From an uncultured virus (IMG/VR IMGVR_UViG_2799112477_000001) (taxonomy: Duplodnaviria; Heunggongvirae; Uroviricota; Caudoviricetes): DNA of 64,000 nt. How positions within the stretch are numbered: the stretch's first letter is position 1; each line of letters starts with the position of its first letter. The position numbers and the translations under genes were made by a program. The stretch lies in IMG/VR virus record IMGVR_UViG_2799112477_000001; one strand, given 5' to 3'. This document shows positions 22,700 to 53,543 of the stretch, piece by piece. The notes beneath the pieces are model-generated. The model saw only the letters and a program-made list of their open reading frames with translations. It had not been told where the DNA came from and ran no database searches.

Positions 22700-22742
22700 C
22701 AAGCTGCAACTATGGCAACGAAGTATAGAGGTGCTTTCAATA

Positions 22743-26525: not shown

Positions 26526-26601
26526 GTGTTGTCTCCTTTCTTAAAAAAGAGACGGGCATAAAAAAGCCCGTCTCATATAACATCAGATATTGATTTTCTT
26601 T

Positions 26602-27447: not shown

Positions 27448-27458
27448 GCCGACACCTC

Positions 27459-27836
27459 CTACCACATCTTGCGAATGAACTGGTTGGTGATGTCAGTAAT
27501 CATGGCTGTTCCCGAATCTCCGGCTACGTGTATGTCATAGTAGCCGTTTCGGCCTGCGCCGTTGGCGAAAACAGGACGGACCTTTTCTTCGTCAGGCATA
27601 TACACCAGATCGACGAGCGGGTTGCCTTCGGCGGCGCCACCATTTTCGGTAAGGCGGATCGCGTCGCGCATTGCGCTGCAGATCATCTGCCTGTCGTCAA
27701 GGGTGAGGTCGTAGACATCTCTGTCCAGCAGTGCGCGGGCTGCAGCCTGCAGCGCTGCCGGTGCATCGTTCTGGCTTATGCCGTAGTCCATCAGGATTTG
27801 TTCGGCTTTGCCGAGTCTTGCTTTGATCGTGTTCAT
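27459..27836 (-). CDS. Hypothetical protein
   Basis: 125-aa ORF with the shared AAAGGAAACAACAC leader. Confidence 0.6.
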   Translation of the reverse strand: MNTIKARLGKAEQILMDYGISQNDAPAALQAAARALLDRDVYDLTLDDRQMICSAMRDAIRLTENGGAAEGNPLVDLVYMPDEEKVRPVFANGAGRNGYYDIHVAGDSGTAMITDITNQFIRKMW

Positions 27837-27919
27837 GTGTTGTTTCCTTTCCCCCGCTTTGCGGGAATAAAAATAGGACGGCCGATGGTCGTCCGGTTAA
27901 TATATGAAATGCTGATCTC

Positions 27920-29062: not shown

Positions 29063-29065
29063 GGA

Positions 29066-29860: not shown

Positions 29861-29953
29861 AGTGTTGTTTCCTTTCGTTTGATGATGTGAGTGCTTTCAA
29901 ATAAACAGAGGCGATGATGTCGCCTCTGTTATCTGACATATCGGGCAGGACGT

Positions 29954-30742: not shown

Positions 30743-30913
30743 GGTGTAACCTCCTTTAAATAAAAGAATGGTTTCACGTCACCGGCATGAAACCATCGCT
30801 TGCTTAAATAAAAAAAGCACCTGCCATGTCTGTGGACATACAGGTGCTCCATTATCAAAGCTGGGAATACGTTAATATGTTTATATTATATATACAAGTG
30901 CCGTCAAATACAA
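30743..30913 (-). promoter_or_regulatory. Conserved operon leader, copy A (promoter, terminator, hairpin, RBS)
   Basis: TTGTAT-17-TATAAT; ATATTAACGTATTCCCAGCTT; GGAGCACCTG..CAGGTGCTTTTTTT; ATGGTTTCA-(CGGTGAC loop)-TGAAACCAT; homologous to 43683-43855. Confidence 0.8.
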
Positions 30914-30922
30914 GCCGTTTCT

Positions 30923-31924
30923 CTACACATTCGCTTCTGCAAAAGCTCTGATAGCTGCCTTGTAGTACTCGGCACGTTCTTCAGTCGGAAGTTCTTTTAC
31001 TTCCTCTGGAACCGCGTCAAGGAACATTGCTTCGGTGACCGACTCTTTCTTGGCTTTCTTCTTCTTTGTGCGCGGGTTCAGCTTTCCTGCCAGAATGCTT
31101 TCGGCCGTCTCTCTTGTGAGTCCGCGGGCTGCAGCTTTCTTAAGCTTCTCCGCTTCCTTCAGAGATATCGCGATCTCTTTATCTGCTACGATATCTGTAA
31201 TGACCTCCTGATGCGAAGCACTTAGGTCTGCAAGGATGACGCCGGCTGTAACAGGCAATTTTCCTTCATCCACTTTGTCAAGAAGAGCAGGGGAGAGGTC
31301 GTTCAGCTTGAGATATCTTCTGACGTTCGAGTCAGAATCAGAGCTTTCCTCGGCAATCGCCTTTAACTCATCTGCCTGTCTCTTGCCCTGCCTTACGGCA
31401 GCTTCAAGGCGAACTTTGTAAGTTCTGGCTTTTTCGGAAGGGAGTATCGTTTCTCTTGCGATGTTTGTATCCGCCATGACGATATCTGCCATGTCATCAT
31501 CAAGGTCAAGTACGCGGCACGGAACTTCACTGAGGCCAAGCTTTTCGGCTGCGAAGCGGCGCCTGTGACCGGATATGATCTCATATTTCCCACCGTTAAG
31601 CTCTCGGACGATGATCGGGAGAAGTATCCCGTAGTCTCTGATGGAGTCTACAAGAATGTCCATGTCTTCATTGTCCAGGACTTTGTATGTGTGGTTATGG
31701 TAGGTGACGAGATCTTTAAGGGGAATGCTTCTGATATCTCCTTCGCCGGACCTGGCGATCTCTATTTCCTTCTTTGTTGGAGCTAATGTTCCCCCGAAGG
31801 GCGTATTGAGGATATTGACTGCACCATCTAACAGCCTGCTAAGTGCATCAGGATCATTGATTTGCTCTACCTGAGAGGAATCAACGACATTACTGAGGTC
31901 ATATTTTGGTTTTTTCTTTGCCAT
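30923..31924 (-). CDS. parB: ParB/Spo0J-family partition protein
   Basis: LVDSIRDYGILLPIIVR..YEIISGHRRRFAA. Confidence 0.92.
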   Translation of the reverse strand: MAKKKPKYDLSNVVDSSQVEQINDPDALSRLLDGAVNILNTPFGGTLAPTKKEIEIARSGEGDIRSIPLKDLVTYHNHTYKVLDNEDMDILVDSIRDYGILLPIIVRELNGGKYEIISGHRRRFAAEKLGLSEVPCRVLDLDDDMADIVMADTNIARETILPSEKARTYKVRLEAAVRQGKRQADELKAIAEESSDSDSNVRRYLKLNDLSPALLDKVDEGKLPVTAGVILADLSASHQEVITDIVADKEIAISLKEAEKLKKAAARGLTRETAESILAGKLNPRTKKKKAKKESVTEAMFLDAVPEEVKELPTEERAEYYKAAIRAFAEANV

Positions 31925-31927
31925 CGT

Positions 31928-32986
31928 TTATATCTCCTCTCTTTCAAGAAATTCATCACACAGCATACTGTAAGCGAGTCTTGTCGGACTGTTTTTCATG
32001 AAGTTCATCAGTGGCATTCCTGCAAGCTGTGCCTGGTTGACCACGGTGGATCTAGGTATCTGCGTGTTGAATATATACATGTTGCGCTCGATCAGCGGCT
32101 CAAACTGGCTCATTACTTCCTTTACAGCCGACCTGTTCTTCTCAACCATAGTATACACGAGGCCGGAGAACTCGAGTGGTGGATTTACCGTCGCCTGCAC
32201 CTTCTGCACTGTAGATACGAGATGGACGATTCCGGATACAGAATAAGGGTCAGGTGTTGCAGGAACCAGAACTCTGTCGGCCATGTTCAGTACGTTGAGT
32301 GTTGTGGCCGAGAGGGCAGGAGGGCAGTCCACCAGGATATAATCGTATTTATCGGTTATGCGTGAGAATATGCTGCGGAATATGGTCATGCCGTTATCTT
32401 TTTTCTTGAGGAGACCGACTTCTCCCATTCTTTCGTAAAAGGCGTTTTCAGACTGATGATATACGTCTACGATCTTTGCAAATCCTTCTACGTACTGCTC
32501 AGCACCCGCTTCCCTGACCTTCTCCTGAAGATTATCATAATCGTCGCGGTAGTTTTTCAGAAACGTTTCCGCAGGTGTAGGCATAGGCGTGATAGAGTAC
32601 AGGATCTCATCCATACTGGCCATTGCTACACTACCCGGGATGAGATCGACCCCGTAGTCGGTATGCACGATTACTCCGCTCAGGTCCTTTTTATATGGCC
32701 TGTCGTAGATTTCTGCACACAGAAGGGTATAGAGTGTTGCTTTGCATCTGCTTGGCATGACACCGAAGGATACTGACAGGTTTTCCTGCTGGTCCGCGTC
32801 GATCATAAGGACCTTCTTGCCTCTGGAATTAAGTTCTCTTGCGAGATTGGCAACTGCTTGTGTCTTTCCTGCGCCGGACTCATCACCTCTTTCCTTCAGT
32901 TCCATCGCAAGATTTGCGACTGTAGCGGTTTTTCCGACGCCGCCTTTCTGATTGAATATCGCTATTATTTTAGCTCTTCTTGACAT
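31928..32986 (-). CDS. parA: ParA/Soj-family ATPase
   Basis: NQKGGVGKT, IDADQQ, YDYILVDCPP. Confidence 0.92.
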   Translation of the reverse strand: MSRRAKIIAIFNQKGGVGKTATVANLAMELKERGDESGAGKTQAVANLARELNSRGKKVLMIDADQQENLSVSFGVMPSRCKATLYTLLCAEIYDRPYKKDLSGVIVHTDYGVDLIPGSVAMASMDEILYSITPMPTPAETFLKNYRDDYDNLQEKVREAGAEQYVEGFAKIVDVYHQSENAFYERMGEVGLLKKKDNGMTIFRSIFSRITDKYDYILVDCPPALSATTLNVLNMADRVLVPATPDPYSVSGIVHLVSTVQKVQATVNPPLEFSGLVYTMVEKNRSAVKEVMSQFEPLIERNMYIFNTQIPRSTVVNQAQLAGMPLMNFMKNSPTRLAYSMLCDEFLEREEI

Positions 32987-33143
32987 TTTTCTCGCTCCCT
33001 TCGTAATGATTCCTAAGAAACTCCTCGATGGCGACTTCTGTGGCGTTCGAGATGCTGCGCTTCTCTTCCTTGCAGAAGGCTAAGAGTGTTTCAAGCAGAA
33101 CCGGATCGATAGTCAATGACAGCTTCTTTTTCTTGTTTGACAT
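32970..33143 (-). CDS. Ribbon-helix-helix (CopG/Arc-like) regulator, 57 aa; not in the ORF track
   Basis: Translated by hand: MSNKKKKLSLTIDPVLLETLLAFCKEEKRSISNATEVAIEEFLRNHYEGSEKNVKKS; GGAGG RBS; overlaps the parA start. Confidence 0.8.
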   Translation of the reverse strand: MSNKKKKLSLTIDPVLLETLLAFCKEEKRSISNATEVAIEEFLRNHYEGSEKNVKKS

Positions 33144-33173
33144 ATTTTCCTCCGGATGTAATGAGTATCTTTG

Positions 33174-33238
33174 CGTATTAGATGCGTATTGATACGCTTT
33201 TTACGTATTGATTGTAGCACATACGGACTCTGCTACAA
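33174..33238 (-). promoter_or_regulatory. par operon promoter with CGTAT repeats/palindrome (operator or centromere candidate)
   Basis: TTGTAG-16-TACAAT with extended TG; CGTATT at 33174, 33185 and 33204; palindrome GCGTAT-TG-ATACGC at 33184-33197. Confidence 0.6.
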
Positions 33239-33368
33239 AGAGGTTCGGTACTTGAGAAAAAAATACTTTTCGGGCAGTTGTCCGAAGACTCTTTAAAACA
33301 TCGGGTGTATAATAAAAAATTTTCGAAAAAAAGAAAGCGCCGCACTATGGCGACGCTCTCCAGGTTCG

Positions 33369-33560
33369 TTAATTTGCGCATTCCTTCCATTTGCCGACCT
33401 TGCGGCCTTCTATGAACAGAAATCCTTCTGTATCGCCGTATGCGACACTCGGAACCATCTGCTGCTGCATCAGTTCCAGAAGGTACTGAGCTTTTGAGTA
33501 AGGTGTGCGCTGGCCGTCATCGGCCAGAAAGGTTGATGTATCTATCATGATCTTAAGCAT
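33369..33560 (-). CDS. Small hypothetical protein
   Basis: 63-aa ORF overlapping the recD2 stop; AAAGGAG RBS. Confidence 0.55.
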   Translation of the reverse strand: MLKIMIDTSTFLADDGQRTPYSKAQYLLELMQQQMVPSVAYGDTEGFLFIEGRKVGKWKECAN

Positions 33561-35376
33561 TACGGAGTCTCCTTTCGACTGTGTCTGCGAAATCGTCTAT
33601 AAGCTCTGCCAGACAGCTGATTCTTTCGTTGAAAGCCTCGCTGACGTCATCCGTGCCTGTAAGTATGACCTTTTCAAGGAGTTTCTTCTGTCCGACGCAT
33701 ATGCATTTCTTCTTGCTGCGGCTTATCGCAGTATAGATGATCTCCCGTGAAAGCATATTGGAGTGCTTTTCATCGAGGATGATGATACAAGTCGGATATT
33801 CCAGTCCCTGAGACTTGTGCACCGTCTGGACAAAAGCCGGTTCGATGAACGAAAGGTCGTCGCCATGCAGGACAATCTCTTTATCTCCGAATCTGCATAC
33901 CGCCGTATCCGGGTAGCACTTTACTGCGATGCCTGTTTCTCCGTTTACGAGACCGTCACGGTTTCTGAGAAACGTGATCTTGTCTCCAGTGTAAACTCTG
34001 CCGGATTCATTCTCGCAGTAGGTGAGTCCTTTTACATCTGTCAGTACTTTTCTGAGCTTGCTGTTCAGCTTGTTGACACCTGTTTCAGTGCTTCTTCTGT
34101 ACGGAGTAAGCACTACTACTGAATCGACGCCGTTTTTCTCTGCTTCCCTTCGGTAGAGATCAACGACCTGCCTGCAGATCGCTTTGGAAGAGCGCTCTTC
34201 TATGAATTCAAAACTGTCGTCTATATCCAGACCGGGATTCCCGGCCTGGATCTTGGCACAGTTGAATGCGATCGAATTGTCTCCCTGTCTGAAGATCTTG
34301 GTGAGCCTTGTCACCGGGACACTTTCAGACGCGATAAGCTCTGCAAGAACGTTGCCCGCTCCTACAGATGGAAGCTGAGCGACGTCACCCACGAATACGA
34401 TCGTTGAGCCTGAAGATATGCTCCTCATCAGGTCCCTGAAAAGATATGCGTCTATCATTGAAGCCTCATCGCAGATGATAAGGGTCTCAGACAGTGTGCA
34501 TTTCGATTCGGTGCTGACTCCCGGAATGATCTTCAGTGCTTTGTGGATCGTGGTAGCGGGGCAGCCTGTCGCGTCGGTCATCCTTCTGGCGGCCTGCCCG
34601 GTTGGTGCGATGCACCTCACCGTGGCTTTCGGGTCAAGATTTTTAAGAGCCTGTATAAGAACAAGCTCAGTCTGAGTCTTTCCTGTACCCGGTCCTCCTG
34701 TAAGAACAGACATCTTATTCTGAAGTATCATGAATACCGCATTTTTCTGTTCCTGCGACAGTATCTTCCCGGTCATTGCCATTGCCGAGTCGATTGCCTT
34801 GTATACAGGTTTTAATCGGCCGTACTTCAAAGGGGAGTTAAGCATCGATGCGGCTATTTCTGCAGCCTCCTTTTCGGCGGAATAAGCTCTTTTCGTTGCC
34901 AGATATATCTGATCGCCTATGCGGTTCACGGATATTTTTCCGGCAAGGGAAAGATGCTTTATGCATTTGTCGAGAAGAGGCTGGTCTATAGTGTCTTCTT
35001 CAAATCCGAGTAGGGATTCAAGAAAGTCATATATCCGGCTTTTCGCGATGCAGGTGCTCCCTGCGTTGTGCGCGATCATCTCATCGAATGCGTTCCTGTT
35101 GTCTTCAGCGCTCCTGGCTGCTCCGCTTTCGCAGGTGCTCAGCGTGTAGAGCAGCGCATAGGCGATCCTCGAAGGACATAGTGCATTGACCTTTGTCTTT
35201 GCAAGAACATAGCTGTCTATCACTGAAAAATCTGCGTCCTGTTCCAGCGTTAGCTGATAAGGGCAGAGCCTCAGGATATCGAGGGATCCATACAGGCCGT
35301 ACTTGTCGATCATGCTTTCGCATTCAGTCTCCGTGAGGCCGAATGGAGCCAAAGCTCTGTATAAATCGTTATCCAT
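33553..35376 (-). CDS. recD2: RecD2-like SF1B helicase
   Basis: TGGPGTGKT, APTGQAA, DEASM, GDVAQLPSVGAG, TVHKSQGLEY, YTAISR. Confidence 0.9.
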   Translation of the reverse strand: MDNDLYRALAPFGLTETECESMIDKYGLYGSLDILRLCPYQLTLEQDADFSVIDSYVLAKTKVNALCPSRIAYALLYTLSTCESGAARSAEDNRNAFDEMIAHNAGSTCIAKSRIYDFLESLLGFEEDTIDQPLLDKCIKHLSLAGKISVNRIGDQIYLATKRAYSAEKEAAEIAASMLNSPLKYGRLKPVYKAIDSAMAMTGKILSQEQKNAVFMILQNKMSVLTGGPGTGKTQTELVLIQALKNLDPKATVRCIAPTGQAARRMTDATGCPATTIHKALKIIPGVSTESKCTLSETLIICDEASMIDAYLFRDLMRSISSGSTIVFVGDVAQLPSVGAGNVLAELIASESVPVTRLTKIFRQGDNSIAFNCAKIQAGNPGLDIDDSFEFIEERSSKAICRQVVDLYRREAEKNGVDSVVVLTPYRRSTETGVNKLNSKLRKVLTDVKGLTYCENESGRVYTGDKITFLRNRDGLVNGETGIAVKCYPDTAVCRFGDKEIVLHGDDLSFIEPAFVQTVHKSQGLEYPTCIIILDEKHSNMLSREIIYTAISRSKKKCICVGQKKLLEKVILTGTDDVSEAFNERISCLAELIDDFADTVERRLRNA

Positions 35377-35435
35377 TTGTGTTGTTTCCTTTCCCGGAGC
35401 AGGGGAGAGTTAAGATCTCCCTCTGTCCGATCCAT

Positions 35436-36638
35436 CTAAACTGCTTCTTCTGGGGCTTCCTCTTTTGAGGTGTACTTGAAATCGCAGCGGAGGGTCGGTT
35501 TGAGATTGCTGATCTCCTCCCAAAGCTCCGGATAATCTTCCGCTACTTTCTGCTTGACATCTTTGTCAAGGCTGAAGCTGCGTACTACGTCGATCTGGTA
35601 GATCGCTCTTGACGTCTCAATGATTCCGCCTGGCGCATTGCCGATGTGCGGAAGAAGGGAAGAGCGAAGCTTCTTTTCTTCTGCCTCGATCTGGCGGATG
35701 AGCTTAGTGGAATCCTTGATGTCGTCGTTCAGAGCGTCCTTGTCCTTTGCGAGCTTTTCAAGTTTGTTCAGGGTGCCGAGGGCTTTGCGCGGAAGCTTTA
35801 CATAGCCGAGCGTGTCGTCGACAGTCCTGTAAACATGGGCGGCCTCGTCAGGAAGGAGGACCTCATCGTACTCGATCCCCGCTGCTGTCTCTGCAACGAA
35901 TCTTGCACAGTCCTCAAGTATCTTGATGGCACGTTCTTCATCGCGTGCAACGTGGAGGTAGACAAAGTCTTCTGCGCTGTCAGCGTGCTTGCTGTGAGCA
36001 AGAACGTAGCAGTCATCGATTCCGAGGACCTGCATGTAGGCCTGCACCTGATCCTGATAGTCTTCAGGTACGTACCCGGCACTGAATTCATCTTTCCATG
36101 TAGCAGCGCTCTTGTGCGAGGATTTGACCTCTGCCAGAGCAACGATTTTTCTGGTCTTTCTGTCTCTCAGAAATCCATCGGGATGAGCGAGGAATGTCGG
36201 CCAGTTTGTGTTGATATATCCGTAGTCACACGGTTCATAAACAACATCTATGCCGTTTCTTCTCATCTTGCCTGCGCAGAACCTTCCGATGTCGGTCTCG
36301 AAGATGTGGCCGTAATCGTAGATGAACTGCTGGCTCGGAAGGGTGGCTTTTTCGACATGCCCGAGCTTCTCAAGCTGAAGAAACCTTCTGGTCTTGAAGC
36401 TGCTGTGTCCCTCGATGATCCCTGCGTCAGATCCACCCGTGAAGAACGGTATCATATCGCTGTATTCAGCGAGAAACGCTTCTCCTTCCGGGGTGTTGAA
36501 CTTGCCTTTTCTGAATTCGTTTCCGAATGTCGCGTCGAATTCTTCCTGTGTGAGGTATCCGCTGTCCAGGGCTTCTGCATAGCTGCTCATGTCCTGAACG
36601 ATTATGAGGTCGCTCCCAGTTATTGTTGTGTCCTTCAT
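35436..36638 (-). CDS. YqaJ/lambda-exonuclease-like recombination nuclease
   Basis: GGSDAG, YGHIFE, LAHPDG, AEVKS, YQDQVQAYM. Confidence 0.85.
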   Translation of the reverse strand: MKDTTITGSDLIIVQDMSSYAEALDSGYLTQEEFDATFGNEFRKGKFNTPEGEAFLAEYSDMIPFFTGGSDAGIIEGHSSFKTRRFLQLEKLGHVEKATLPSQQFIYDYGHIFETDIGRFCAGKMRRNGIDVVYEPCDYGYINTNWPTFLAHPDGFLRDRKTRKIVALAEVKSSHKSAATWKDEFSAGYVPEDYQDQVQAYMQVLGIDDCYVLAHSKHADSAEDFVYLHVARDEERAIKILEDCARFVAETAAGIEYDEVLLPDEAAHVYRTVDDTLGYVKLPRKALGTLNKLEKLAKDKDALNDDIKDSTKLIRQIEAEEKKLRSSLLPHIGNAPGGIIETSRAIYQIDVVRSFSLDKDVKQKVAEDYPELWEEISNLKPTLRCDFKYTSKEEAPEEAV

Positions 36639-36699
36639 AATAATTCCTTTCCGGCAGGGAAGGAGCCGTTGGGCCCCTCCTCGCCTGTGCTTGTTCCTG

Positions 36700-39657
36700 T
36701 TAAGCCTTTTTCCTTGCTTTACGCTCGGTTTTTTCGGCTACTTCCTTGATTCTTTTTTCGCGTTTTTTGTCGCTTTCCTTCTTGCCCTCTTCCTTGACAT
36801 CGGAAACGTCAACTCCGGCTATCTTGGCAGCCTCCTTGACGAACTCGTTATACGCGAATCCTGATTCAGCGGTGCCCGAGAGTCTGACCTGTCCGGTTAT
36901 GAACAGTTCATCTCTTGCTCGTGTTGCCGAAACGAAGAGGAGCCTTCTGTTTTCCTCTCTCTCATCGAGGCTCATTCCGTCCTTCTTGTCATATTTGGTG
37001 ATTGAGTTGATGATGACCGGCCACTCAAGACCTTTGGACGAGTGTGCTGTGGAGAGTACTACGCCAGAATAAAGACCTTCTCTTTTGAGTTCTTCGCCGT
37101 CAAAGCGGATGAATGCGTCAATGTAGCTGACCATTTCATCGGTAGTGACGAAGCGAACGAGCCTCTCGGCGAGGTTTACAGCGACATCATCCTCTGCTGC
37201 GATCTCCTTAGCGAGCGCTCTGAAAGCCTCGGATCTCTTAGGCTCGTAAAGTGAACGCAGGTGAAGGATCGTCTGCTGACCTTCATCGATGATCTCATTG
37301 ATTTCCTCATCCGTGTTGGAAAGGACCTTTCCACCTTCAAGGCAATTCTGGAAAATCAGGATCTCTTTTGTGGCGGTGTAGTCTTTGTATGCTCTGGCGA
37401 GAGAACATATTCCCTGAACTCTGGAGTTCTCAAGCATCTTCTGAGGTGCCTGAAGTGAGGATTCGATGCCTTCGTCTGTGAGCTTTCCTGCGATCTTGAC
37501 GATCTCGGTCTTTGTTCTTGCAAGGATAGCGATATCTTCAGGGGCATAACCCTCTTTGATTTTCTCCTTGACGACGGAAACGATGTAGTCGTATTCCTTG
37601 TCGACCTTATAGAATGCCTTGACGGTCACCGGCTTGCCGGATGGTCTTGTTGCAACGAGGTCTTTTTCGACTCTTCTTATGTTGAGCGCGTTGACTTTGT
37701 TGGCAAACTCGAGGATCTCCGGTGTTGAACGATGGTTTTCGACGAGATTGACGTCCTTTACGGGCTGACCGATGCGGTCCTCGAACTCGATGATGTTGCC
37801 GGAGTCGGCATCACGCCAGCTGTAGATAGCCTGGCTGTCATCACCGACTACCAGAAGCGATTCAAATGCAGCAACATCGAGAAGCTGTTTTATGATCTCC
37901 ATCTGGTTTTTCGAGGTATCCTGGAACTCGTCAATGATGATGTGCTTGTAGCCCATCTTGTCGAAGTAGTAAGGGTCCATGTCGAGAATATCGAAGATCA
38001 TGGCTTCCTGATCAGCAAATTCGATCAGGTTCCTTGACCTTAATGTCTCGTCGTAGTCCTCATACAGCTCGAGAAGAGCCTGATAAGCATCTTCACTGTC
38101 AATGGACGAATACCATTTCACATTCAGCTTTCTTCTCAGCTCATCTACATCGTAGACCGAGAGCCTGTCGCGCTTGATGATTTCGAACGCAGCTTCCGTT
38201 ACGAGCCTTGCTCCGCCGAAACCTTTGAACTTAAGGTTTATGTTCTCGTAGTAAAGACCCGGAACGGTCTTTTTATCGAGAAGGCGGGCGATGATGGCAG
38301 ATCTTTCCGTGGCGTCGATAGGGCGGGGCGGAGCGGTGAATCCAAGACGTCCGAACTCAGTGTTCAGAATGTCCTGTCCGAACTCATTGAATGTGACGAT
38401 ACGAATATCGTTTACATCCATGTCTATACCCAGTCCTTTGAGGTATGATGATGTCCTGTCTTTCATCTCTCTTGCTCCTGCGTTGGAGAAGGTGATGAGA
38501 AGTATGGATGCGGGATCAATCCCCTCAGCGATCATGAACGCCGTGTTCAGAGCTACCACTGTGGTCTTTCCGGAGCCTGCTCCTGCATTGCAGCGCATAA
38601 TACCGTGTCTATGCCTTACGACCTCGTCCTGCTTGTCGGAAAGCGAGATGCCTGAAAGAGGCTTTTCTCTTCTTTCGACCTCAGTTTTGAGAGGTGCTTC
38701 GGCAAAGTGGCACAGCTGGTACCAATCGCAGTCAAGGCAATCATCTCCGTCGCAGTCGTGGCCGATGATGTATTCCTTGAACTGAGGCTCATAAACCTTG
38801 TCTATCTCGACTGCCATGCCGGAGAGTGTGCAGATATGTCTTCTTTTCTCGTCTGAGAAGAAGCCCGGGACAAGATGATCCGTGCGGTCTGAGTCCTTGC
38901 GGAGAAAGTAATAGCTTCCCTTTGCAGCCCAGTCTTCCGGATCTTTTTCCTTAGCAGCTTCGCTTCTGGCATAAGCGTATATGCCGTAAAGCTCTTTATT
39001 GTTAAGAATATTTCTGTCCTGTGATCTTCCGCGTGCCGAACAATCAGGCTTGCCACATCTGATACGGATAGCTTCGATTGTTTTCGTACGTACATTTCTG
39101 TACAGAAGATCAGGTCTGGCCCCCTTGACTTCCTGTCCGAAAAGAACAAGGTCTTTAGGTGCCGGAACTGTGAGGCTTCTTTCTTCTTCGTCGAGATATC
39201 TGAATATTCTCCTGGAAACTGTCTCGCCGAGAAGGCGGGCGGTCTCTCTTGTGTCGAAGCTGTAGCTTCTGTACGTGCGGAGGATCAGATCTTTTACATA
39301 GTCCTTGCGGCTTGCCAGCTTGACGACCATAAACGCCTTTGTCTCGTTGAAAATTCCGGTGATAAGGTCGAATCTTCCGTCTGCACGAAGGATCGACTTT
39401 ACTCCGTCATAGACGTAGAGCATATCGTCTTCGACAAGATCTCTTTCAAGTTTGTCCTGAATTAGCATGATTGCTGTTTTCACGTCATAGTCGCGGTCAC
39501 GGAGTGACTTGCTCCAGAACCAGTTTTTGATGACTGTTTTCTGGAATGCGAACTGTTCGTAGCGATCATCCTTTCCGCTTGAAAGGTTCAGATCTCTTGA
39601 ACGCTTGGAATAACAGGAATTATTTCCTTTGAGTTGTGAAAGTCGCACTGATTCCAT
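36700..39657 (-). CDS. UvrD/Rep/PcrA-family helicase with N-terminal nuclease-like extension
   Basis: AGAGSGKT, ITFSN, DEFQD, VGDDSQAIYSWR, NHRS, STAHSSKGLEW, FVSATRAR; ATG 39657 with the shared leader. Confidence 0.9.
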   Translation of the reverse strand: MESVRLSQLKGNNSCYSKRSRDLNLSSGKDDRYEQFAFQKTVIKNWFWSKSLRDRDYDVKTAIMLIQDKLERDLVEDDMLYVYDGVKSILRADGRFDLITGIFNETKAFMVVKLASRKDYVKDLILRTYRSYSFDTRETARLLGETVSRRIFRYLDEEERSLTVPAPKDLVLFGQEVKGARPDLLYRNVRTKTIEAIRIRCGKPDCSARGRSQDRNILNNKELYGIYAYARSEAAKEKDPEDWAAKGSYYFLRKDSDRTDHLVPGFFSDEKRRHICTLSGMAVEIDKVYEPQFKEYIIGHDCDGDDCLDCDWYQLCHFAEAPLKTEVERREKPLSGISLSDKQDEVVRHRHGIMRCNAGAGSGKTTVVALNTAFMIAEGIDPASILLITFSNAGAREMKDRTSSYLKGLGIDMDVNDIRIVTFNEFGQDILNTEFGRLGFTAPPRPIDATERSAIIARLLDKKTVPGLYYENINLKFKGFGGARLVTEAAFEIIKRDRLSVYDVDELRRKLNVKWYSSIDSEDAYQALLELYEDYDETLRSRNLIEFADQEAMIFDILDMDPYYFDKMGYKHIIIDEFQDTSKNQMEIIKQLLDVAAFESLLVVGDDSQAIYSWRDADSGNIIEFEDRIGQPVKDVNLVENHRSTPEILEFANKVNALNIRRVEKDLVATRPSGKPVTVKAFYKVDKEYDYIVSVVKEKIKEGYAPEDIAILARTKTEIVKIAGKLTDEGIESSLQAPQKMLENSRVQGICSLARAYKDYTATKEILIFQNCLEGGKVLSNTDEEINEIIDEGQQTILHLRSLYEPKRSEAFRALAKEIAAEDDVAVNLAERLVRFVTTDEMVSYIDAFIRFDGEELKREGLYSGVVLSTAHSSKGLEWPVIINSITKYDKKDGMSLDEREENRRLLFVSATRARDELFITGQVRLSGTAESGFAYNEFVKEAAKIAGVDVSDVKEEGKKESDKKREKRIKEVAEKTERKARKKA

Positions 39658-39740
39658 TGTGTTGTTTCCTTTCCACCACAAAAGGAGAGACTTGCGGCCT
39701 CTCCTCTCGTGGATTTAATAATATTTAACTATATCTTTTC

Positions 39741-42284
39741 TTAGTGAAAGTATCTCTGCAGGATGCGTGTAAGCTCGTCTTCGATCTCGTCGAGAGAAGC
39801 GAAGATGATCTCTTGGCCGTACATTTCTCTGAAAACTGCAAAGTCTTCATCGTCTTGATCGTGGTACATATACATGCCGATCGTGCGGATGCCTGCCTTG
39901 CGAGCGTCTTCTACTGCTGATTTTACATCCTTGATGCCTTCTTTGAAGCCACCTCTGTAGTCAGTAGGGAAGCCGTCTGATGCGATGATCAGGATCTTGT
40001 CCTTCTCAGGTCTCATTGAGAGCTGCTTGGCTGCGACACGGATGCTGTAGCCGTCCTTGTTGCCCCAGCCGGATCTTCCGAGGTCTCTGAAGTTGTATGA
40101 CAGATTCGCAGGTGCGACCTCGTCAAACTCCTTGATGACTTCGTGCATGACTCTGTCAGAACCGTTTGCGTCGAACGCAGCGATCTTGAGAGGCATGTGA
40201 TCCTTGAAGCCTTCCTCCAGAACAGCGAATGCGTTGCAGCATGCAAATCTTGTTGAGCCCGGACCATTTCCCATCGAGCCGGAATTGTCCATAAGGAGGA
40301 ATCCGGCTACGTCTGACTTTACAGGCGCTCCCTTTTTCTTGAACACGTCGATATCGCCCATCGCGAGATTAGCGATCCTTCTTGTGTCAAGCATACCGGA
40401 TCTTAAGAACCTCAGATCTGGCTCCTGCTTATTCTTGATAAGCTGGTCGATCTTGCGGTCAAGAGACTTGCCCTTGTTTTCAAGTTCCATAGGGAGCCTT
40501 CCTGTCGGATCGTACTTTCTTACGGATTCTGTGAATTTCACATTGCCTGCGTATCTGGCATCGATATCTCCCATAGGGATCGGTGTCGAAGTAACAGGTT
40601 TGAAATTCTTAGCCGCCTTGCTGAAGGCTTCATCGAGCTTTGCGTCTGCTTCAGCAATCTCAAAGTCTGCAGATGCCTTCTTTGCAGCTTCTTCCATAGC
40701 CTCTTCGAGGCGGGAAGTGAATTCCTCTTCCGACAGGCTGCTTTCAGAGGCGCTCTCAACGACATTGTTGCTTCCGGTATCGTTGTTCTCTGTGAACAGG
40801 CCGTCTGCGGATTCAATGCCGTCAGTTTCATCGGAGCCGCCAGAAGATTTGCCTGATTTCTCTCCGGATCCGGTTGCGCTGTCGGAGCTGCTTTCTGAGG
40901 AGGAGTCGAAACCGTCTCCGTTTCCTTCTTCTCCGCTGTCGGATGATTCGCTTCCGGCATTATCGGCAGGTTCTCCTCTCTTATCTGAAGCAGAGGAGTC
41001 TTTGCCGGATTTGCCAAGCGATATCCCGCTTGCTGCAGCTTCGTCTGCCTCATCAGATCCTTCGCTGTCGGAATCGTCTTCTCCGTTTTCGGAAGAATTG
41101 GTATCGGCTGCCTTGCCGGAGCTTTTACCTTTTTCGGAATCTGAAGGGTCGTCGCCGTCTTCGCTGTCGCTTTTGACTTTGAACTTTACACCCGGTGCCG
41201 AGTCGTCGTCGAGCTCAGACTCTTCCTTGAGCTTTTCGTAAGTTTCTTTATCGACTTCCATCTCAAGTTCGGTCTGTCCGAAGACACTCTCCGCAGGTGT
41301 TCCGTCGCCCTTTTCCTCAGTGGAAGGGGAGGCGGACATCTTGGTCTTGTCAAGATTTTCAAGAAGCTTATCGACAAGCTTCTCGAGGAACTTCTTGAAT
41401 GCTTTTGCATCAGCCTCAACTGAGCAGACGTCAACGATCATGTCCAGAAGGCGATCGAATATGATGCGTCCCTGGTCCATGCATTCCTTGCAGGTCTTTC
41501 CGAGTACTGCTGCTGCGATCTCCGGTATGAAGCTGGCACACAGATCATGCGCGTCGGTTCCGCCGTATGCTGCGAGGAATCCACGCTGGTAGATACCAAG
41601 TGTTGCAAGCGGATACAGCTGCCCGAGGATCATTACCAGCTTATCGAAGTCGTTAAGGTCAGCAGGGTCTTCTTTGAAGCCGTCCATGTCGCGGAAATCG
41701 TCTTCAAGCCATCTCTTACCGCGGAATGTTTTGCGGTAATTGCCGAAGCCCGGATGGAGCTGCGTGCGGATGTTCTCGATCCTGCCATCCTCGAGTACGT
41801 TGAGCACATACTTGATGTACTCGAAAAGAAGCTGCTGATTGACGAAAATGCCTTTATTGGCCAGTTCTGCGAAGAACTTTTCGTAATCCGAGTCCTTTGT
41901 GAGGCGACGCGGCTTGCCGAACGCCTTGATGGCGAGCTTGTCGCAAGCTCTGTTGAAGCACATCTTCTGTGCTGCCTCCCAGTCCTTCGCGGTCGTTGAT
42001 AGCATATGCTGAAGCTCGTGACCGAGAAGGTGATGGACCTGATCGAAAAATTCCTGCGGAGTGTCCGCATCAACCATTCCATATCCGATGTGAATCGTGC
42101 AAGGGTAGGTTCTGCCTGTCTTTTCGTCCTTGAATGCAGGATGCTGATAGCTTCCGTCATCAGGCTCAAGCTCAAATACAGGAATCTTCTTTATGGTGTG
42201 TGCAAGGCACTCAACATATATAAGCGATTCGAAGTGTCTGCGCCATTTGAGCGCAAGGTTGGTCTTTTCTTTCATAGTCAGCAT
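39741..42284 (-). CDS. vWA (CobT/NorD-like) domain protein with N-terminal HExxH domain and acidic linker
   Basis: HELQH, NVLEDGRIE, MIDAS DNSGSM, IIASDGFP. Confidence 0.85.
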   Translation of the reverse strand: MLTMKEKTNLALKWRRHFESLIYVECLAHTIKKIPVFELEPDDGSYQHPAFKDEKTGRTYPCTIHIGYGMVDADTPQEFFDQVHHLLGHELQHMLSTTAKDWEAAQKMCFNRACDKLAIKAFGKPRRLTKDSDYEKFFAELANKGIFVNQQLLFEYIKYVLNVLEDGRIENIRTQLHPGFGNYRKTFRGKRWLEDDFRDMDGFKEDPADLNDFDKLVMILGQLYPLATLGIYQRGFLAAYGGTDAHDLCASFIPEIAAAVLGKTCKECMDQGRIIFDRLLDMIVDVCSVEADAKAFKKFLEKLVDKLLENLDKTKMSASPSTEEKGDGTPAESVFGQTELEMEVDKETYEKLKEESELDDDSAPGVKFKVKSDSEDGDDPSDSEKGKSSGKAADTNSSENGEDDSDSEGSDEADEAAASGISLGKSGKDSSASDKRGEPADNAGSESSDSGEEGNGDGFDSSSESSSDSATGSGEKSGKSSGGSDETDGIESADGLFTENNDTGSNNVVESASESSLSEEEFTSRLEEAMEEAAKKASADFEIAEADAKLDEAFSKAAKNFKPVTSTPIPMGDIDARYAGNVKFTESVRKYDPTGRLPMELENKGKSLDRKIDQLIKNKQEPDLRFLRSGMLDTRRIANLAMGDIDVFKKKGAPVKSDVAGFLLMDNSGSMGNGPGSTRFACCNAFAVLEEGFKDHMPLKIAAFDANGSDRVMHEVIKEFDEVAPANLSYNFRDLGRSGWGNKDGYSIRVAAKQLSMRPEKDKILIIASDGFPTDYRGGFKEGIKDVKSAVEDARKAGIRTIGMYMYHDQDDEDFAVFREMYGQEIIFASLDEIEDELTRILQRYFH

Positions 42285-42296
42285 AAGATCACCTCC

Positions 42297-43682
42297 TTAG
42301 AATGTGATCTTGTCACGGACCATGCCGCCTAAGACCATGCGCTCTTCAGGCAGACAGCCGTTCAGGACCTGGATCGTGATACGGTGTGCAAGGCTTGTGG
42401 CTTCAGGGAACCTCTCAACGTCTGCAAGAGCTCTTACGAACCCTCTGATGTTGAGGCATCTTTTAGATACGCGGCCTTGTTCAACAGCACTTTTGAAATC
42501 CTTGTAGACTCTTGAGCATGCCTTGAAGTGTTTCTTGCTGAGCTTGGTATCTTCAGGGAAGTTTGCTCTGAGGAGGCTTTCGATGTCTTCCGGCATCTCG
42601 ACCTGGATCCTCGCGAGTCTTGAAGATGTAGCCTCGTTCAGTTCTCTTGTTCCTGCGTAGTCTGAACCGACCGGGTTCATACCGCCCGCAAGAACGCAGT
42701 GAGGGTGAAGCTTGATAGCTCCTTCTCCGCCAGGGAGTACAAGAACGCGCTCTCCGTCAGCAAGAGGGTGTACCAGAGCCTGAAGGAAGTTGGCTTCTGC
42801 CATGTTGATCTCGTCAAACAGCAGAACGCCTCCGTCCTTTGCCCAGTCTACGATCTCCGCCTTGTTCTGGATGATCCTCAGGGATGCACTCTGAGCTTTC
42901 AGCAGCTCGAACTTTGCCGCATCAGCGAGGTAGTTTTCGTATTTCACCGGATCGGCGGATACGAGGACCTTTGCCATTGCGAGCTCAAGGTCAAGGCCTT
43001 CAGCTGCAGAGTTGTCTGTGGACTTTCCTCCGAAGACGGAGTCCATGTCCATGCCTGCGGACATTCCGATCCTGTAGTACGGTTTGCAGTTGAACCATGC
43101 AAGTGTAGTTGTCAGAACGTTCTTGCCCGTTGACTTTTCTCCTTCAAGAAGGAGACCTTCTCCATTGAGCATGCAGATGATTGCATCGTTCATGTAGGAA
43201 AATTCAGTGCTAGGGTTTCCATCCTGATAGATCGGCATTCCGTTAGGCTTGAAGCGCTTTTCAGAGGCATTTGCTACTCTCTCTCTAAGCACGCGTGCTA
43301 TGAGGGTAGGGTGCACTCTGTTGTCCTCCATGCATTTGATCATGGCGTCGACTTCTTCTTCCGGAACGGATTCAAAGTCGATGAGGGCTTTTTCAGCTGC
43401 GTAATCGCCGCCGTTTGCAGATGTCTCTGCGCAGTCAACGTCGATGATGAACGAGAGGGTCTCCGCTCCCGGCCCTACGAGCTTAGCCTCATAGAGCTTC
43501 GGGATCTCGAAGCCGTCTTCTGCGTAGCCGATCGACAGATCGTCAATGACGGCCTCAACCTTATTTCCCGGAGCTGGTCTGAAGAATACCGGAGTCAGTA
43601 CCGACTTGCCGTCATTCAGAAGCTCTGAGAAGTGATTTGCTCCAGGCTGCAGAAATGTTCCTTTTACTGTGATAGTTTTCAT
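42297..43682 (-). CDS. MoxR/CbbQ/CobS-type AAA+ ATPase
   Basis: GEKSTGKN, LFDEINMA, GMNP..YAGTRELNEATSSR. Confidence 0.85.
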   Translation of the reverse strand: MKTITVKGTFLQPGANHFSELLNDGKSVLTPVFFRPAPGNKVEAVIDDLSIGYAEDGFEIPKLYEAKLVGPGAETLSFIIDVDCAETSANGGDYAAEKALIDFESVPEEEVDAMIKCMEDNRVHPTLIARVLRERVANASEKRFKPNGMPIYQDGNPSTEFSYMNDAIICMLNGEGLLLEGEKSTGKNVLTTTLAWFNCKPYYRIGMSAGMDMDSVFGGKSTDNSAAEGLDLELAMAKVLVSADPVKYENYLADAAKFELLKAQSASLRIIQNKAEIVDWAKDGGVLLFDEINMAEANFLQALVHPLADGERVLVLPGGEGAIKLHPHCVLAGGMNPVGSDYAGTRELNEATSSRLARIQVEMPEDIESLLRANFPEDTKLSKKHFKACSRVYKDFKSAVEQGRVSKRCLNIRGFVRALADVERFPEATSLAHRITIQVLNGCLPEERMVLGGMVRDKITF

Positions 43683-43855
43683 GGTGTTATCTCCTTTCGT
43701 TAAATAGAAAATGACTTCGCGTCACCGCTGCGAAGCCACCGTTTGCTTAAACAAAAAAGCACCTGCAATGCCCTAAAGACATACAGGTGCTCCGATTGTA
43801 AGCTGAGAATACGTTAATATGAGTATATATTATAGCATTCCGGCTGATTTTACAA
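43683..43855 (-). promoter_or_regulatory. Conserved operon leader, copy B
   Basis: TTGTAA..TGCTATAAT; ATATTAACGTATTCTCAGCTT; GGAGCACCTG..CAGGTGCTTTTTT; GTGGCTTCGC-(CGGTGAC loop)-GCGAAGTCAT. Confidence 0.8.
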
Positions 43856-53520: not shown

Positions 53521-53543
53521 AAAAAAACAGAAAGGAGGAGCAC

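What the first reader, a model, noticed from the sequence alone, without database searches (positions are those of the whole stretch)
30743..43855. Duplicated ~170-bp structured leader (promoter, terminator, covarying hairpin) heads both DNA-processing operons
Seen: 30743-30913 and 43683-43855 share, on the minus strand, a sigmaA-like promoter, ATATTAACGTATTC(C/T)CAGCTT and a strong terminator GGAGCACCTG..CAGGTGCTTTTTT. This is followed by TTTAAGCAA and a second hairpin whose stem differs between copies (ATGGTTTCA/TGAAACCAT vs GTGGCTTCGC/GCGAAGTCAT) but keeps its pairing and the loop CGGTGAC, then the RBS. Compensatory stem changes indicate selection on structure. Known: establishment operons of Bacillus plasmid pLS20 have repeated attenuating leaders. 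Inference: an undescribed attenuator/antitermination switch or cis-RNA motif that keeps these genes off until transfer.
Basis: partly seen in the sequence, partly recalled or inferred. Interest (0 to 1): 0.78.

Follow-up and report, generated by a model that had tools for sequence, protein, structure and literature searches.

The report
Five-copy promoter-terminator leader cassette on plasmid
A large conjugative plasmid of an uncultured Clostridia-type bacterium starts five of its operons, including its DNA-recombination and replication genes, with the same short promoter-plus-terminator leader. This leader probably gates their transcription; the design resembles known plasmid 'establishment' control regions, but the sequence matches no described family.

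Summary
The window lies on a 162.8-kb plasmid-like contig with Rep3 and iterons, ParAB and type IV secretion genes. That contig carries five copies of the cassette, all on the minus strand, not two.

Each cassette has these parts, in order:
- a sigmaA-like promoter (TTGnnn, 17 bp, then TATAAT or TAATAT);
- an almost invariant 18-21-nt 5' segment;
- a 6-8-nt hypervariable linker;
- a strong intrinsic terminator, T1 (about -21 kcal/mol, six or seven U);
- TTTAAGCAA;
- a second hairpin, H2, with two compensatory pairs.

In four of the five copies H2 also has a conserved CGGUG loop and a U-rich tail, and the ribosome-binding site follows at once.

No Rfam family matches. There is no relative in PLSDB, in the phage collection, in IMG/VR or in 400 genomes of the same family. 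The only other copies lie in assemblies of the same plasmid lineage.

The best reading is a shared transcription attenuator that marks a plasmid regulon. This is analogous in role to the EGeRS regions of pLS20 and p576, but built differently. The 5' segment and the T1 5' arm are invariant and flank a variable loop, which suggests a weak antiterminator hairpin that needs a factor. Its energy is no better than chance and no factor was found. The mechanism, and any link to transfer, remain inferred.

The parts
30885..30913 (-). Copy A promoter: TTGTAT, 17 bp, TATAAT
   Evidence: Read from the sequence. All 5 copies have TTGnnn exactly 17 bp from a -10 hexamer in the same alignment column (for A-D, for E). 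Not listed by the consensus scan.
30858..30878 (-). Copy A invariant 5' segment ATATTAACGTATTCCCAGCTT, at the predicted start of the transcript
   Evidence: 1 of 18 columns varies among the 5 paralogs and among all 12 aligned sequences.
30850..30857 (-). Copy A hypervariable linker; candidate apical loop of an antiterminator hairpin
   Evidence: 8 of 8 columns vary. Nascent-RNA folds place it as the loop in all 5 copies.
30810..30849 (-). Copy A intrinsic terminator T1: bulged stem of about 15 pairs plus U7
   Evidence: -21.4 kcal/mol. The 5' arm varies in 0 of 15 columns and the 3' arm in 2 of 14. The sense strand folds better than the antisense strand in all 12 sequences.
30800..30808 (-). 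Copy A TTTAAGCAA; its AAGC can pair with GCTT of the 5' segment and so extend T1
   Evidence: RNAalifold consensus, columns 22-25 with 79-82; these pairs are invariant, so uninformative.
30758..30796 (-). Copy A hairpin H2 (loop CCGGTGA) with U-rich tail TCTTTTATTT; possible second terminator
   Evidence: Fold; listed as terminator-like; 2 compensatory pairs.
30740..30757 (-). Copy A RBS AAAGGAGG and the ATG of the SSB gene
   Evidence: SSB by Pfam at 2.2e-35.
25578..30742 (-). Operon behind copy A: SSB, Erf/Rad52-like, primase-like (DUF3854), 125 aa, 287 aa, internal terminator 26549-26574, DUF5688
43829..43855 (-). Copy B promoter: TTGTAA, then TGCTATAAT at 15 bp or TAATAT at 17 bp
43800..43820 (-). 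Copy B invariant 5' segment ATATTAACGTATTCTCAGCTT
43793..43799 (-). Copy B variable linker ACAATCG
43753..43792 (-). Copy B intrinsic terminator T1 plus U6
   Evidence: -21.6 kcal/mol; sense -20.3 against antisense -12.3 kcal/mol.
43743..43751 (-). Copy B TTTAAGCAA
43702..43739 (-). Copy B hairpin H2 (loop AGCGGTGAC) with U-rich tail TTTCTATTT
43680..43697 (-). Copy B RBS AAAGGAG and the ATG of the AAA_5 ATPase gene
33332..43682 (-). Operon behind copy B: AAA_5 ATPase, vWA-like, UvrD-like helicase, RecE-like/YqaJ exonuclease, RecD/Dda-like helicase, 63 aa, ending at terminator 33332-33361

Best explanation
The cassette is a reused promoter-plus-leader unit that places five operons of one conjugative megaplasmid under common control, and it most likely acts by transcription attenuation. 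RNA polymerase starts at a sigmaA-type promoter and transcribes about 30 nt. It then meets a strong intrinsic terminator (T1), so by default most transcripts should end as RNAs of about 70 nt. In four copies a second, weaker hairpin with a U-rich tail (H2) stands between T1 and the ribosome-binding site. The genes behind are intact and have no promoter of their own, so some read-through must occur. I propose that read-through is set by a trans-acting factor that recognises the invariant 5' segment together with the invariant 5' arm of T1. The likeliest way is by stabilising a weak antiterminator hairpin: ACGUAU pairs with GUAUGU, GCUU pairs with GAGC, and the variable linker forms the loop. 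This hairpin would hold back the bottom of the T1 stem. Shown here: five copies, the anatomy, the fold energies, the mosaic of invariant and variable segments, and the absence from known families. Inferred: that T1 terminates, that read-through is regulated, the antiterminator pairing, the existence of a factor, and any link to plasmid establishment.
For: - Five copies occur on one 162.8-kb contig and none elsewhere in the 2.5-Mb assembly. This holds by BLAST, by motifs and by covariance model, which gives 5 sense matches of 127-170 bits and nothing else below E 0.0006 except antisense echoes.
- The same five copies are kept in two other long assemblies of the plasmid, 156,313 and 154,516 bases.
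- Four copies abut an RBS and ATG of unrelated genes. The fifth leads a roughly 200-nt UTR and a 79-aa ORF.
- T1 is -20.5 to -21.6 kcal/mol with U6-7, about 30 nt after the predicted start site. Its wobble pairs make the sense strand the better hairpin in 12 of 12 sequences.
- Copies C and E have separate terminators upstream of their own promoters, so T1 is not needed to end the operon upstream.
- The variability forms a mosaic among the 5 paralogs. The 5' segment varies in 1 of 18 columns, the linker in 8 of 8, the T1 5' arm in 0 of 15, the T1 loop in 4 of 5, the T1 3' arm in 2 of 14, and the H2 arms in 8 of 20. Invariant against interleaved variable segments gives Fisher p 4e-9; T1 arms against H2 arms give p 0.009; across 12 sequences the T1 5' arm (0 of 15) against the 3' arm (4 of 14) gives p 0.04. 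A stem that only had to pair would drift as H2 does, so the T1 5' arm carries an extra constraint on its sequence.
- The nascent RNA folds into the same two-helix hairpin joining the 5' segment to the T1 5' arm in 5 of 5 copies.
- Gene content behind the cassette turns over: a variant plasmid has an extra XRE-type gene directly behind leader C. The SSB leader of that variant is a chimera of A-type flanks and a D-type core. Both fit a portable regulatory unit.
Against: - The proposed antiterminator is weak, at -6.2 to -7.5 kcal/mol, and no better than dinucleotide shuffles of the 5' part: the fraction of shuffles as good is 0.04-0.46 across the five copies.
- Its pairs are invariant, so there is no covariation for it.
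- No candidate factor was found. No ORF of the five operons on C42 has a nucleic-acid-binding regulator domain in Pfam, NCBIfam or PHROGs. There is no NusG paralogue on the contig.
- If H2 is also a terminator, a hairpin switch at T1 alone would not be enough.
- Gene conversion between copies is seen and can inflate apparent conservation.
- The promoters and T1 are predictions. The consensus scan listed neither.
- All comparison sequences come from one plasmid lineage.
Confidence: 0.4

Rival explanations
1. Promoter-loaded or leader-loaded processive antitermination. In the manner recalled for lambda Q at PR'-tR', AlpA, or cis-acting put, conAn2 or canT RNAs, a factor or the leader itself would modify RNA polymerase within the first 30 nt or so. 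The polymerase would then ignore T1, H2 and later terminators.
For: - Two terminator-like hairpins stand in tandem before the RBS, which a single hairpin switch would not overcome.
- Conservation runs from the -10 box through about +21, as expected for a loading site at the promoter or in the initially transcribed region.
- A strong terminator (26549-26574) abuts the RBS of the last gene of operon A, 28 nt after the previous stop codon, a gap that holds only a weak promoter-like TGTTATAT.
- Processive systems are established on Gram-positive conjugative elements (abstracts of PMC8191782 and PMC11658703).
Against: - No Q-, AlpA- or NusG-type protein was found on the contig by Pfam.
- The 5' segment is unstructured and only about 30 nt long, far smaller than the 'large RNA element' of conAn (abstract of PMC8191782).
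- The 10.3-kb operon B has no strong internal terminator, so processivity is not obviously needed there.
Confidence: 0.13
2. Control at the DNA level by a repressor, as in EGeRS2 of p576. The conserved stretch from -12 to +21 would be an operator, and the hairpins would only damp or stabilise the transcript.
For: - p576 uses four sigmaA promoter cassettes repressed by an RHH protein. One of its leaders carries inverted repeats that raise expression about 2-fold (PMC6294495, section 22 and passages found).
- The 5' segment contains, in reverse, one AATACGT heptad. The same word is repeated in the operator-like cluster before the plasmid's own Arc-like RHH-ParA-ParB operon.
Against: - There is only one heptad per leader, against a cluster of three AATACG words within 40 bp at the par promoter. 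AATACG occurs 82 times on the contig, at the genome-wide rate, so this is a post-hoc match.
- The 5' segment has no dyad or direct-repeat symmetry.
- No TTATCCC motif occurs in any of the 5 cassettes.
- No repressor gene lies inside the five operons of C42.
- An operator would not explain the invariant T1 5' arm or the wobble pairs specific to the sense strand.
Confidence: 0.17
3. No switch at all. T1 would be a fixed, leaky throttle, an insulator, or both, behind a strong promoter. The long 5' hairpin and H2 would protect the mRNA 5' end. One variant: polymerase that has just started nearby passes T1 better than polymerase arriving from upstream (an idea from recalled work on early-transcribed sequences and on NusA/NusG-assisted termination).
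For: - Transcripts from the ParB gene run straight into cassette A with no terminator of their own, so T1 does insulate there.
- In read-through RNA, T1 extends to about 23 pairs through linker:U-tract and GCUU:AAGC pairing, which would make a good 5' stabiliser.
- Leader hairpins raise expression in p576 (PMC6294495, passages found).
Against: - It does not explain why the unpaired 5' segment and one arm of T1 are invariant while H2 drifts.
- Copies C and E already have upstream terminators.
Confidence: 0.2
4. The hairpins act in single-stranded DNA on entry into a recipient cell, as a single-strand promoter or a priming site.
For: - The genes behind the cassettes (SSB, annealase, primase) suit early establishment.
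- EGeRS1 is suspected to act as ssDNA or RNA (PMC8708921, section 9, part 1).
- H2 in copies C, D and E folds better on the antisense strand.
Against: - A normal double-strand promoter is present, and the stems hold no -35 or -10 boxes.
- DNA hairpin energies are small: -9.8 to -11.8 kcal/mol for T1 and -2.2 to -7.7 for H2.
- The transferred strand is unknown, because no relaxase of PF03432 or PF02486 was found on the contig.
Confidence: 0.05
5. The product is the terminated RNA of about 70 nt: a five-gene family of small RNAs whose conserved 5' end is a seed.
For: - Promoter, conserved single-stranded 5' end and terminator with a U tail are the anatomy of a small RNA.
Against: - No complementary target was found. 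The 11-mer of the 5' segment occurs, on either strand, only in the five cassettes and once on contig C26.
- Four cassettes continue seamlessly into an RBS and gene, and the conserved unit ends exactly at the ATG.
Confidence: 0.05

Closest known systems
EGeRS1, establishment gene regulatory sequence type 1 of pLS20-family plasmids (PMC8708921; abstract and section 9 parts 1-2 read)
   Same: Five copies of one conserved non-coding region on a conjugative plasmid, each immediately upstream of the RBS of a different operon. Predicted to be structured, blocks transcription coming from upstream, and defines a regulon whose gene content varies between related plasmids.
   Different: EGeRS1 is 420-750 bp, is GC-rich (51% against 38% for the plasmid), and has many inverted repeats and no constitutive sigmaA promoter. 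This cassette is about 170 bp, has 37-40% GC on a 48% GC contig, and consists of a sigmaA-like promoter, one canonical terminator and one further hairpin. blastn of copy A against PLSDB found nothing except one 31-nt match at E 0.5.
EGeRS2 / Reg576-controlled promoters of p576 (PMC6294495; abstract, section 22 and found passages read)
   Same: Several copies of a sigmaA promoter cassette heading establishment-type operons. One leader (PardC576) has RNA hairpins between the promoter and the RBS.
   Different: EGeRS2 is defined by dual TTATCCC operators and an RHH repressor gene inside the regulon. Neither is present here. EGeRS2 has no promoter-proximal terminator.
Protein-stabilised antiterminator hairpins overlapping a leader terminator, such as BglG/SacY/LicT with RAT (recalled, not read here)
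   Same: A weak, imperfect hairpin with internal loops would hold back the 5' side of a much stronger terminator and would need a binding factor to win.
   Different: No CAT/PRD, ANTAR or other known antiterminator domain was found on the contig by Pfam. The pairing is not statistically supported. Multi-copy use across a plasmid is not a feature of those systems.
Promoter-proximal terminator with promoter-loaded antitermination: lambda PR'-qut-tR' with Q and its 6S RNA (recalled)
   Same: A strong promoter is followed by a short terminated RNA unless polymerase is modified near the start. Conservation spans the -10 box and the initially transcribed region.
   Different: No Q-family protein was found, and no pause element was tested. 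Here the terminator lies at about +30 to +70 and the unit is repeated five times.
Conjugation-operon leader devices of Gram-positive elements: conAn (PMC8191782), zipper-type attenuator cATT (PMC13401043), canT of Tn916 (PMC11658703); abstracts only
   Same: Termination and antitermination in the leaders of conjugative-element operons. In the zipper type, a central long stem is extended by flanking complementary sequences.
   Different: Those are single elements at the head of the conjugation operon and are hundreds of nt long. Here the GCUU:AAGC extension of T1 stops short of the H2 arm, so it would not prevent H2 from forming. T1 itself carries the U tract.

Membership tests
Any Rfam 15 family | A covariance-model match at the family's gathering score | tested here: not met
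   The whole window at gathering thresholds gave only HEARO and a tRNA. The permissive E-value mode on both leaders gave a best hit of 22.3 bits against a cut-off of 105. The copy E region gave none.
EGeRS1 (pLS20 type) | Several copies, each immediately upstream of the RBS of a separate operon on one conjugative plasmid | tested here: met
   There are five copies. Four abut an RBS and one has a roughly 200-nt UTR. Type IV secretion genes, Rep3 and ParAB are present.
EGeRS1 (pLS20 type) | More than 60% identity to pLS20 EGeRS1; 420-750 bp; GC-rich; no constitutive sigmaA promoter (PMC8708921, section 9) | tested here: not met
   No PLSDB match beyond a 31-nt chance hit. I did not check that pLS20 itself is in that collection. 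The cassette is about 170 bp with 37-40% GC and has TTGnnn-17-TATAAT.
EGeRS2 (p576 type) | Dual TTATCCC operator motifs flanking the promoter | tested here: not met
   0 of 5 cassettes contain TTATCCC, or the shorter word TTATCC, on either strand.
EGeRS2 (p576 type) | An RHH repressor gene inside the regulon | tested here: not met
   No DNA-binding domain was found in ORFs of the five operons on C42. The only RHH nearby is the Arc-like gene of the par operon. ORFs under 50 aa, and three ORFs that straddle locus borders, were not scanned.
Leader attenuator (intrinsic terminator between promoter and RBS) | A stable GC-rich hairpin followed by a U tract, downstream of the start site and upstream of the RBS | tested here: met
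   T1 is -20.5 to -21.6 kcal/mol with U6-7 in 5 of 5 copies.
Leader attenuator (intrinsic terminator between promoter and RBS) | A mutually exclusive antiterminator structure | tested here: inconclusive
   The same candidate forms in 5 of 5 copies, but its energy is within the range of shuffles and no covariation is possible.
Leader attenuator (intrinsic terminator between promoter and RBS) | Termination and conditional read-through observed | not testable with these tools
   This needs transcription assays or 3'-end mapping.
Zipper-type attenuator cATT (PMC13401043, abstract) | Flanks of a long central stem are complementary, so that extending the stem consumes the downstream terminator | tested here: not met
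   The extension (columns 22-31 with 73-82) ends before H2 (columns 87-118).
Processive antitermination with a NusG paralogue (RfaH/LoaP type; recalled) | A NusG-like gene on the element | tested here: not met
   PF02357 matches only one gene, on contig C36, and none on C42.

The most novel reading that the evidence does not exclude
The cassette would be a third, structurally distinct type of plasmid establishment-regulon control region, one that works at the RNA level. In this reading, a roughly 40-nt factor-dependent antiterminator hairpin (or a promoter-proximal loading site for an unknown antitermination factor) opens a strong terminator placed about 30 nt after the start site of five operons at once. 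It would also be one instance of a promoter-then-terminator design that earlier notes of this scan report in several conjugative elements of uncultured Clostridia and that has no described mechanism.
Probability: 0.3. Interest if true: 0.7.

Novelty: new variant of a known kind. Interest (0 to 1): 0.5.

Why it matters
Little is known about how conjugative plasmids of anaerobic Firmicutes time the genes that process incoming DNA. The only worked examples are the two EGeRS types of Bacillus plasmids. This cassette suggests another solution: one small unit of promoter, terminator and hairpin copied in front of five operons, among them the plasmid's SSB, annealase, primase, exonuclease and helicase genes.

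If read-through is regulated, a single unknown factor would switch on about 20 kb of genes. The invariant 18-21-nt segment and the terminator arm would be its recognition site. Together they form a compact, portable control part that can be tested with a synthetic reporter.

If read-through is not regulated, the cassette is still a clear natural example of using a leader terminator to throttle and insulate operons.

Tried and rejected
- **Relatives for covariation.**
  - blastn against PLSDB and the phage collection found nothing.
  - 400 genomes of the same family gave 2 partial matches of 26-29 nt near the RBS, taken as chance.
  - The exact 18-mer scan of 185,579 species genomes gave 29 stretches. 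Only 3 loci, all of one record, are real, and they are identical to copies D, E and C.
  - Two IMG/VR scans gave 53 and 81 stretches (80 read), with 0 real.
  - The metagenome scan gave 23 stretches. Fifteen are real and all belong to the same plasmid lineage; 8 are chance.
- **Relatives through the first gene of operon B.** PLSDB tblastn reached at most 30% identity. None turned up in 400 genomes of the order at E 1e-20. None turned up in IMG/VR.
- **Covariance model R1.** It found no extra diverged copy on the contig.
- **Leader peptide.** An ATG-started frame across T1 exists in copies A and C only. Rejected.
- **Antisense or trans RNA from copy E's transcript.** Duplex energies were no better than shuffles (one search timed out).
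- **Regulator candidates.** The 79-aa ORF behind copy E has only near-identical homologues (2 clusters), and its single-sequence AlphaFold model is unusable (pLDDT 44). There were no NCBIfam or PHROG hits for the small ORFs.
- **Recognition by the par RHH.** This rests on a single heptad and is only a weak lead.
- **Relaxase and leading region.** PF03432 matches five other contigs but not C42; PF02486 matches none.
- **H2 loop compared with an ops-like motif or an extended Shine-Dalgarno.** These are resemblances from memory only, and there is no NusG paralogue. Dropped.
- **ACACC before the ATG.** Other genes of the plasmid share it (repeat families D5, D6 and D12), so it is not specific to the leader.

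Full report
**Observation.**

On the minus strand, window 30743-30913 (copy A) and 43683-43855 (copy B) align from the -10 box to the start codon, while their flanks are unrelated. Copy A retrieves copy B at E 1.3e-24 within the 2.5-Mb assembly. The leaders fold much better than shuffled controls: z -5.7 and -4.7, with 0 of 200 shuffles as good.

**Context.**

The window is G000:C42:30396-94395, on a contig of 162,836 bases. The contig has these features:
- a Rep3 initiator behind ten iterons;
- an Arc-like RHH-ParA-ParB operon;
- two VirD4-like coupling proteins and a VirB4-like ATPase;
- a giant cell-wall hydrolase;
- sortase-dependent adhesins;
- Cas12a, a type I restriction-modification system and GmrSD.

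I read it as a conjugative megaplasmid. No relaxase of PF03432 or PF02486 was found on it. The transfer origin, and so the 'leading region', remain unknown.

**Five copies, not two.**

BLAST, motif counts and a covariance model built from 12 distinct sequences all find five sense-strand copies on C42, and none elsewhere in the assembly.

| Copy | What it heads |
|---|---|
| A | SSB, Erf/Rad52-like annealase, a zinc-finger/DUF3854 primase-like gene, two unknowns and DUF5688 |
| B | AAA_5 ATPase, vWA-like protein, UvrD-like helicase, RecE-like/YqaJ exonuclease and RecD/Dda-like helicase |
| C | At least six ORFs without a Pfam family except one DUF1281_C-like |
| D | Two small unknown ORFs |
| E | A roughly 200-nt structured UTR and an orphan 79-aa ORF |

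Operon B ends at a strong terminator (33332-33361). It lies ahead of the par operon, which has its own promoter and AATACG repeats. Pairwise identity of the cassettes from +1 to the end of H2 is 73-92%.

**Anatomy.**

All five copies have TTGnnn exactly 17 bp upstream of a -10 hexamer in the same alignment column. The hexamer is TATAAT in A, C and D and TAATAT in E. B offers TAATAT at 17 bp or TGCTATAAT at 15 bp. The sequence between the -35 and -10 boxes does not align between the A, B, E and C/D types. The consensus scan did not list these promoters because their -35 boxes are weak.

The predicted transcript then runs as follows:
- It begins with ATATTAACGTATTC(C/T)CAGCTT (TATTTAACG... in E).
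- A 6-8-nt linker follows.
- Next comes T1, a bulged stem of about 15 pairs at -20.5 to -21.6 kcal/mol, with six or seven U.
- After T1 comes TTTAAGCAA (TTTGGCAA in C).
- H2 follows. In A-D it has the loop CGGTG(AC) and a U-rich tail, and then the RBS and ATG.
- In E the H2 stem is kept, but the loop, tail and RBS are not.

**What the variation says.**

Among the five paralogs, the number of variable columns per segment is:

| Segment | Variable columns |
|---|---|
| 5' segment | 1 of 18 |
| Linker | 8 of 8 |
| T1 5' arm | 0 of 15 |
| T1 loop | 4 of 5 |
| T1 3' arm | 2 of 14 |
| H2 5' arm | 5 of 10 |
| H2 3' arm | 3 of 10 |
| Tail | 12 of 13 |

- Invariant and fully variable blocks of 5-18 nt alternate (Fisher p 4e-9). 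Recent copying alone does not explain the invariance.
- The T1 arms vary less than the H2 arms (p 0.009).
- Across all 12 sequences the T1 5' arm (0 of 15) varies less than its 3' arm (4 of 14; p 0.04).
- H2 behaves as a hairpin selected for pairing. Two pairs switch on both sides, C-G to U-A and G-C to A-U, and several switch through wobble. However, 25 of 500 column shuffles reach two such pairs, and three of the five copies carry an A x C mismatch.
- T1 shows no compensatory change at all. Its wobble pairs make the sense strand the better hairpin in 12 of 12 sequences, as expected for an RNA terminator.
- For H2 the strand preference is mixed.

**Mechanism.**

Copies C and E have separate terminators just upstream of their promoters, so T1 is not there merely to end the preceding operon. 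No room for another promoter exists between T1 and the RBS. The genes behind are long intact ORFs, kept in at least three assemblies. T1 must therefore be read through at some rate, which makes it an attenuator, either fixed or regulated.

When the nascent RNA is folded before the T1 3' arm exists, all five copies give the same structure. ACGUAU of the 5' segment pairs with GUAUGU of the T1 5' arm, and GCUU pairs with GAGC at the base of T1. A pyrimidine-rich internal loop lies between the two helices, and the variable linker is the apical loop. This would explain three things:
- why the 5' segment and the T1 5' arm are invariant;
- why the linker is free to vary;
- why the 5' arm is more constrained than the 3' arm.

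The structure is worth only -6.2 to -7.5 kcal/mol against about -21 for T1, so it would need a stabilising factor. Its energy is not better than shuffles (fraction as good 0.04-0.46) and it has no covariation. It is therefore a hypothesis, not a finding.

If H2 with its U-rich tail also terminates, a modification of RNA polymerase near the promoter would fit better. That rival also suits the strong terminator that abuts the RBS of the DUF5688 gene.

I found no candidate factor:
- No antiterminator, Q-like, AlpA-like or NusG-like domain turned up on the contig.
- Nothing turned up in NCBIfam or PHROGs for the small ORFs.
- The 79-aa ORF behind copy E is an orphan with an unusable model.

These scans left out three ORFs that straddle locus borders and all ORFs under 50 aa.

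**Distribution.**

The cassette was found only in this plasmid lineage:
- One public MAG record titled as an uncultured Clostridiales bacterium holds copies D, E and C, all identical to ours.
- Two metagenome contigs of 156 and 154 kb hold five copies each.
- Four short contigs come from a more diverged variant.

In that variant the SSB leader has A-type flanks and a D-type core, which shows recombination between copies. An XRE-type gene with no homologue on C42 sits directly behind leader C. The unit therefore behaves as a portable head for exchangeable gene sets.

**Comparison with what is known.**

The closest published concept is the establishment gene regulatory sequence of the pLS20 plasmid family.
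- EGeRS1 has five copies of 420-750 bp, is GC-rich, has no constitutive promoter and blocks read-through.
- EGeRS2 of p576 consists of sigmaA promoters with TTATCCC operators for an RHH repressor.

These descriptions come from PMC8708921 (abstract and section 9, parts 1-2) and PMC6294495 (abstract, section 22 and found passages).

The present cassette shares the role and the multi-copy layout but fails the defining features of both types. It is also unlike the single, long leader devices of conjugation operons (conAn, cATT, canT; abstracts only).

Two full-text searches for an equivalent description found none. This covers only the open-access library searched.

**Earlier notes of this scan.**

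Word look-ups returned several AI notes on other genomes. They describe promoter-then-terminator cassettes heading operons of conjugative elements in uncultured Clostridia. One heads a YqaJ-helicase-annealase-primase operon and has a second terminator. I could not check them. A look-up by sequence found no look-alike of this cassette. They suggest that the design recurs with unrelated sequences. That raises the interest of the general question and lowers the uniqueness of this instance.

**Verdict.**

This is a real, five-copy, uncatalogued promoter-attenuator leader that defines a plasmid regulon. Its kind is broadly known and its build is new. Its switch mechanism and any tie to transfer are unproven.

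Noticed in passing
window 53049-54893: tRNA-Pro(GGG) at 53049-53123 is followed at once by a full-length HEARO RNA (53218-53442, 140.7 bits) and an RRXRR/IscB-like ORF (53544-54893). A second RRXRR ORF lies at 56021-57484 and shares a 27-nt repeat with the first. A third lies on C42 at 107818-109167.
   Followed up: partly
window 22077-23999: Ten iterons with the core TTCAATCGTGACATTTTGGGG lie upstream of a Rep3-family initiator gene: the plasmid's likely replication origin.
   Followed up: partly
window 12462-12545, 13651-13734, 14888-14971 (+): A second repeated promoter-like module, in three copies about 1.2 kb apart. It has the palindrome TTTTTTCAATTTGAAAAAAA, TTGATA-17-TATACT and a shared GCGTTTTTGCGATGG start. 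It is unrelated in sequence to the five-copy cassette.
   Followed up: no
window 30923-33361 (-): A separate par operon: terminator, promoter with a cluster of AATACG words (33174-33210), a 57-aa Arc-like RHH, ParA and ParB. One AATACGT word also lies, inverted, in the cassette's 5' segment. This is a weak lead that the RHH could touch the cassettes.
   Followed up: partly
window 26549-26574 (-): A strong terminator hairpin whose U tract runs straight into the RBS of the DUF5688 gene. It starts 28 nt after the preceding stop codon, and only a weak TGTTATAT promoter-like word lies upstream.
   Followed up: partly
window 55013-55834 (+): An ORF that fuses a GNAT acetyltransferase domain to an RNA polymerase alpha C-terminal domain.
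   Followed up: no
window 8433-9872 (-) and 48077-48574 (+): A 479-aa ORF with an S1 RNA-binding domain sits among the transfer genes. A second, shorter SSB gene lies on the opposite strand.
   Followed up: no
L013 17505-17975 (C42 131900-132370, -): Copy E is followed by a roughly 200-nt UTR that folds somewhat better than shuffles (z -2.2) and matches no Rfam family. An orphan 79-aa ORF follows; its protein cluster is recorded on 112 contigs.
   Followed up: partly
L193 1632-2306: In a diverged variant of the plasmid, a 224-aa XRE-type HTH gene is inserted directly behind leader C, ahead of the gene that follows leader C in this genome.
   Followed up: partly
L014 11882-15535 and L015 935-6062 (C42 146277-149930, 155330-160457): The same contig carries a Cas12a gene, type I restriction-modification genes (HsdM, HsdS) and a GmrSD-type nuclease, plus three tandem tyrosine recombinase genes at C42 91-3270.
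   Followed up: no
L020, L032, L033, L043, L048: Five contigs of one Desulfobacteraceae MAG share the 18-mer used as a probe, inside a repeat of their own (…TTAACGTATTCGCAGCTTTGGCA…). It is unrelated to the cassette.
   Followed up: no
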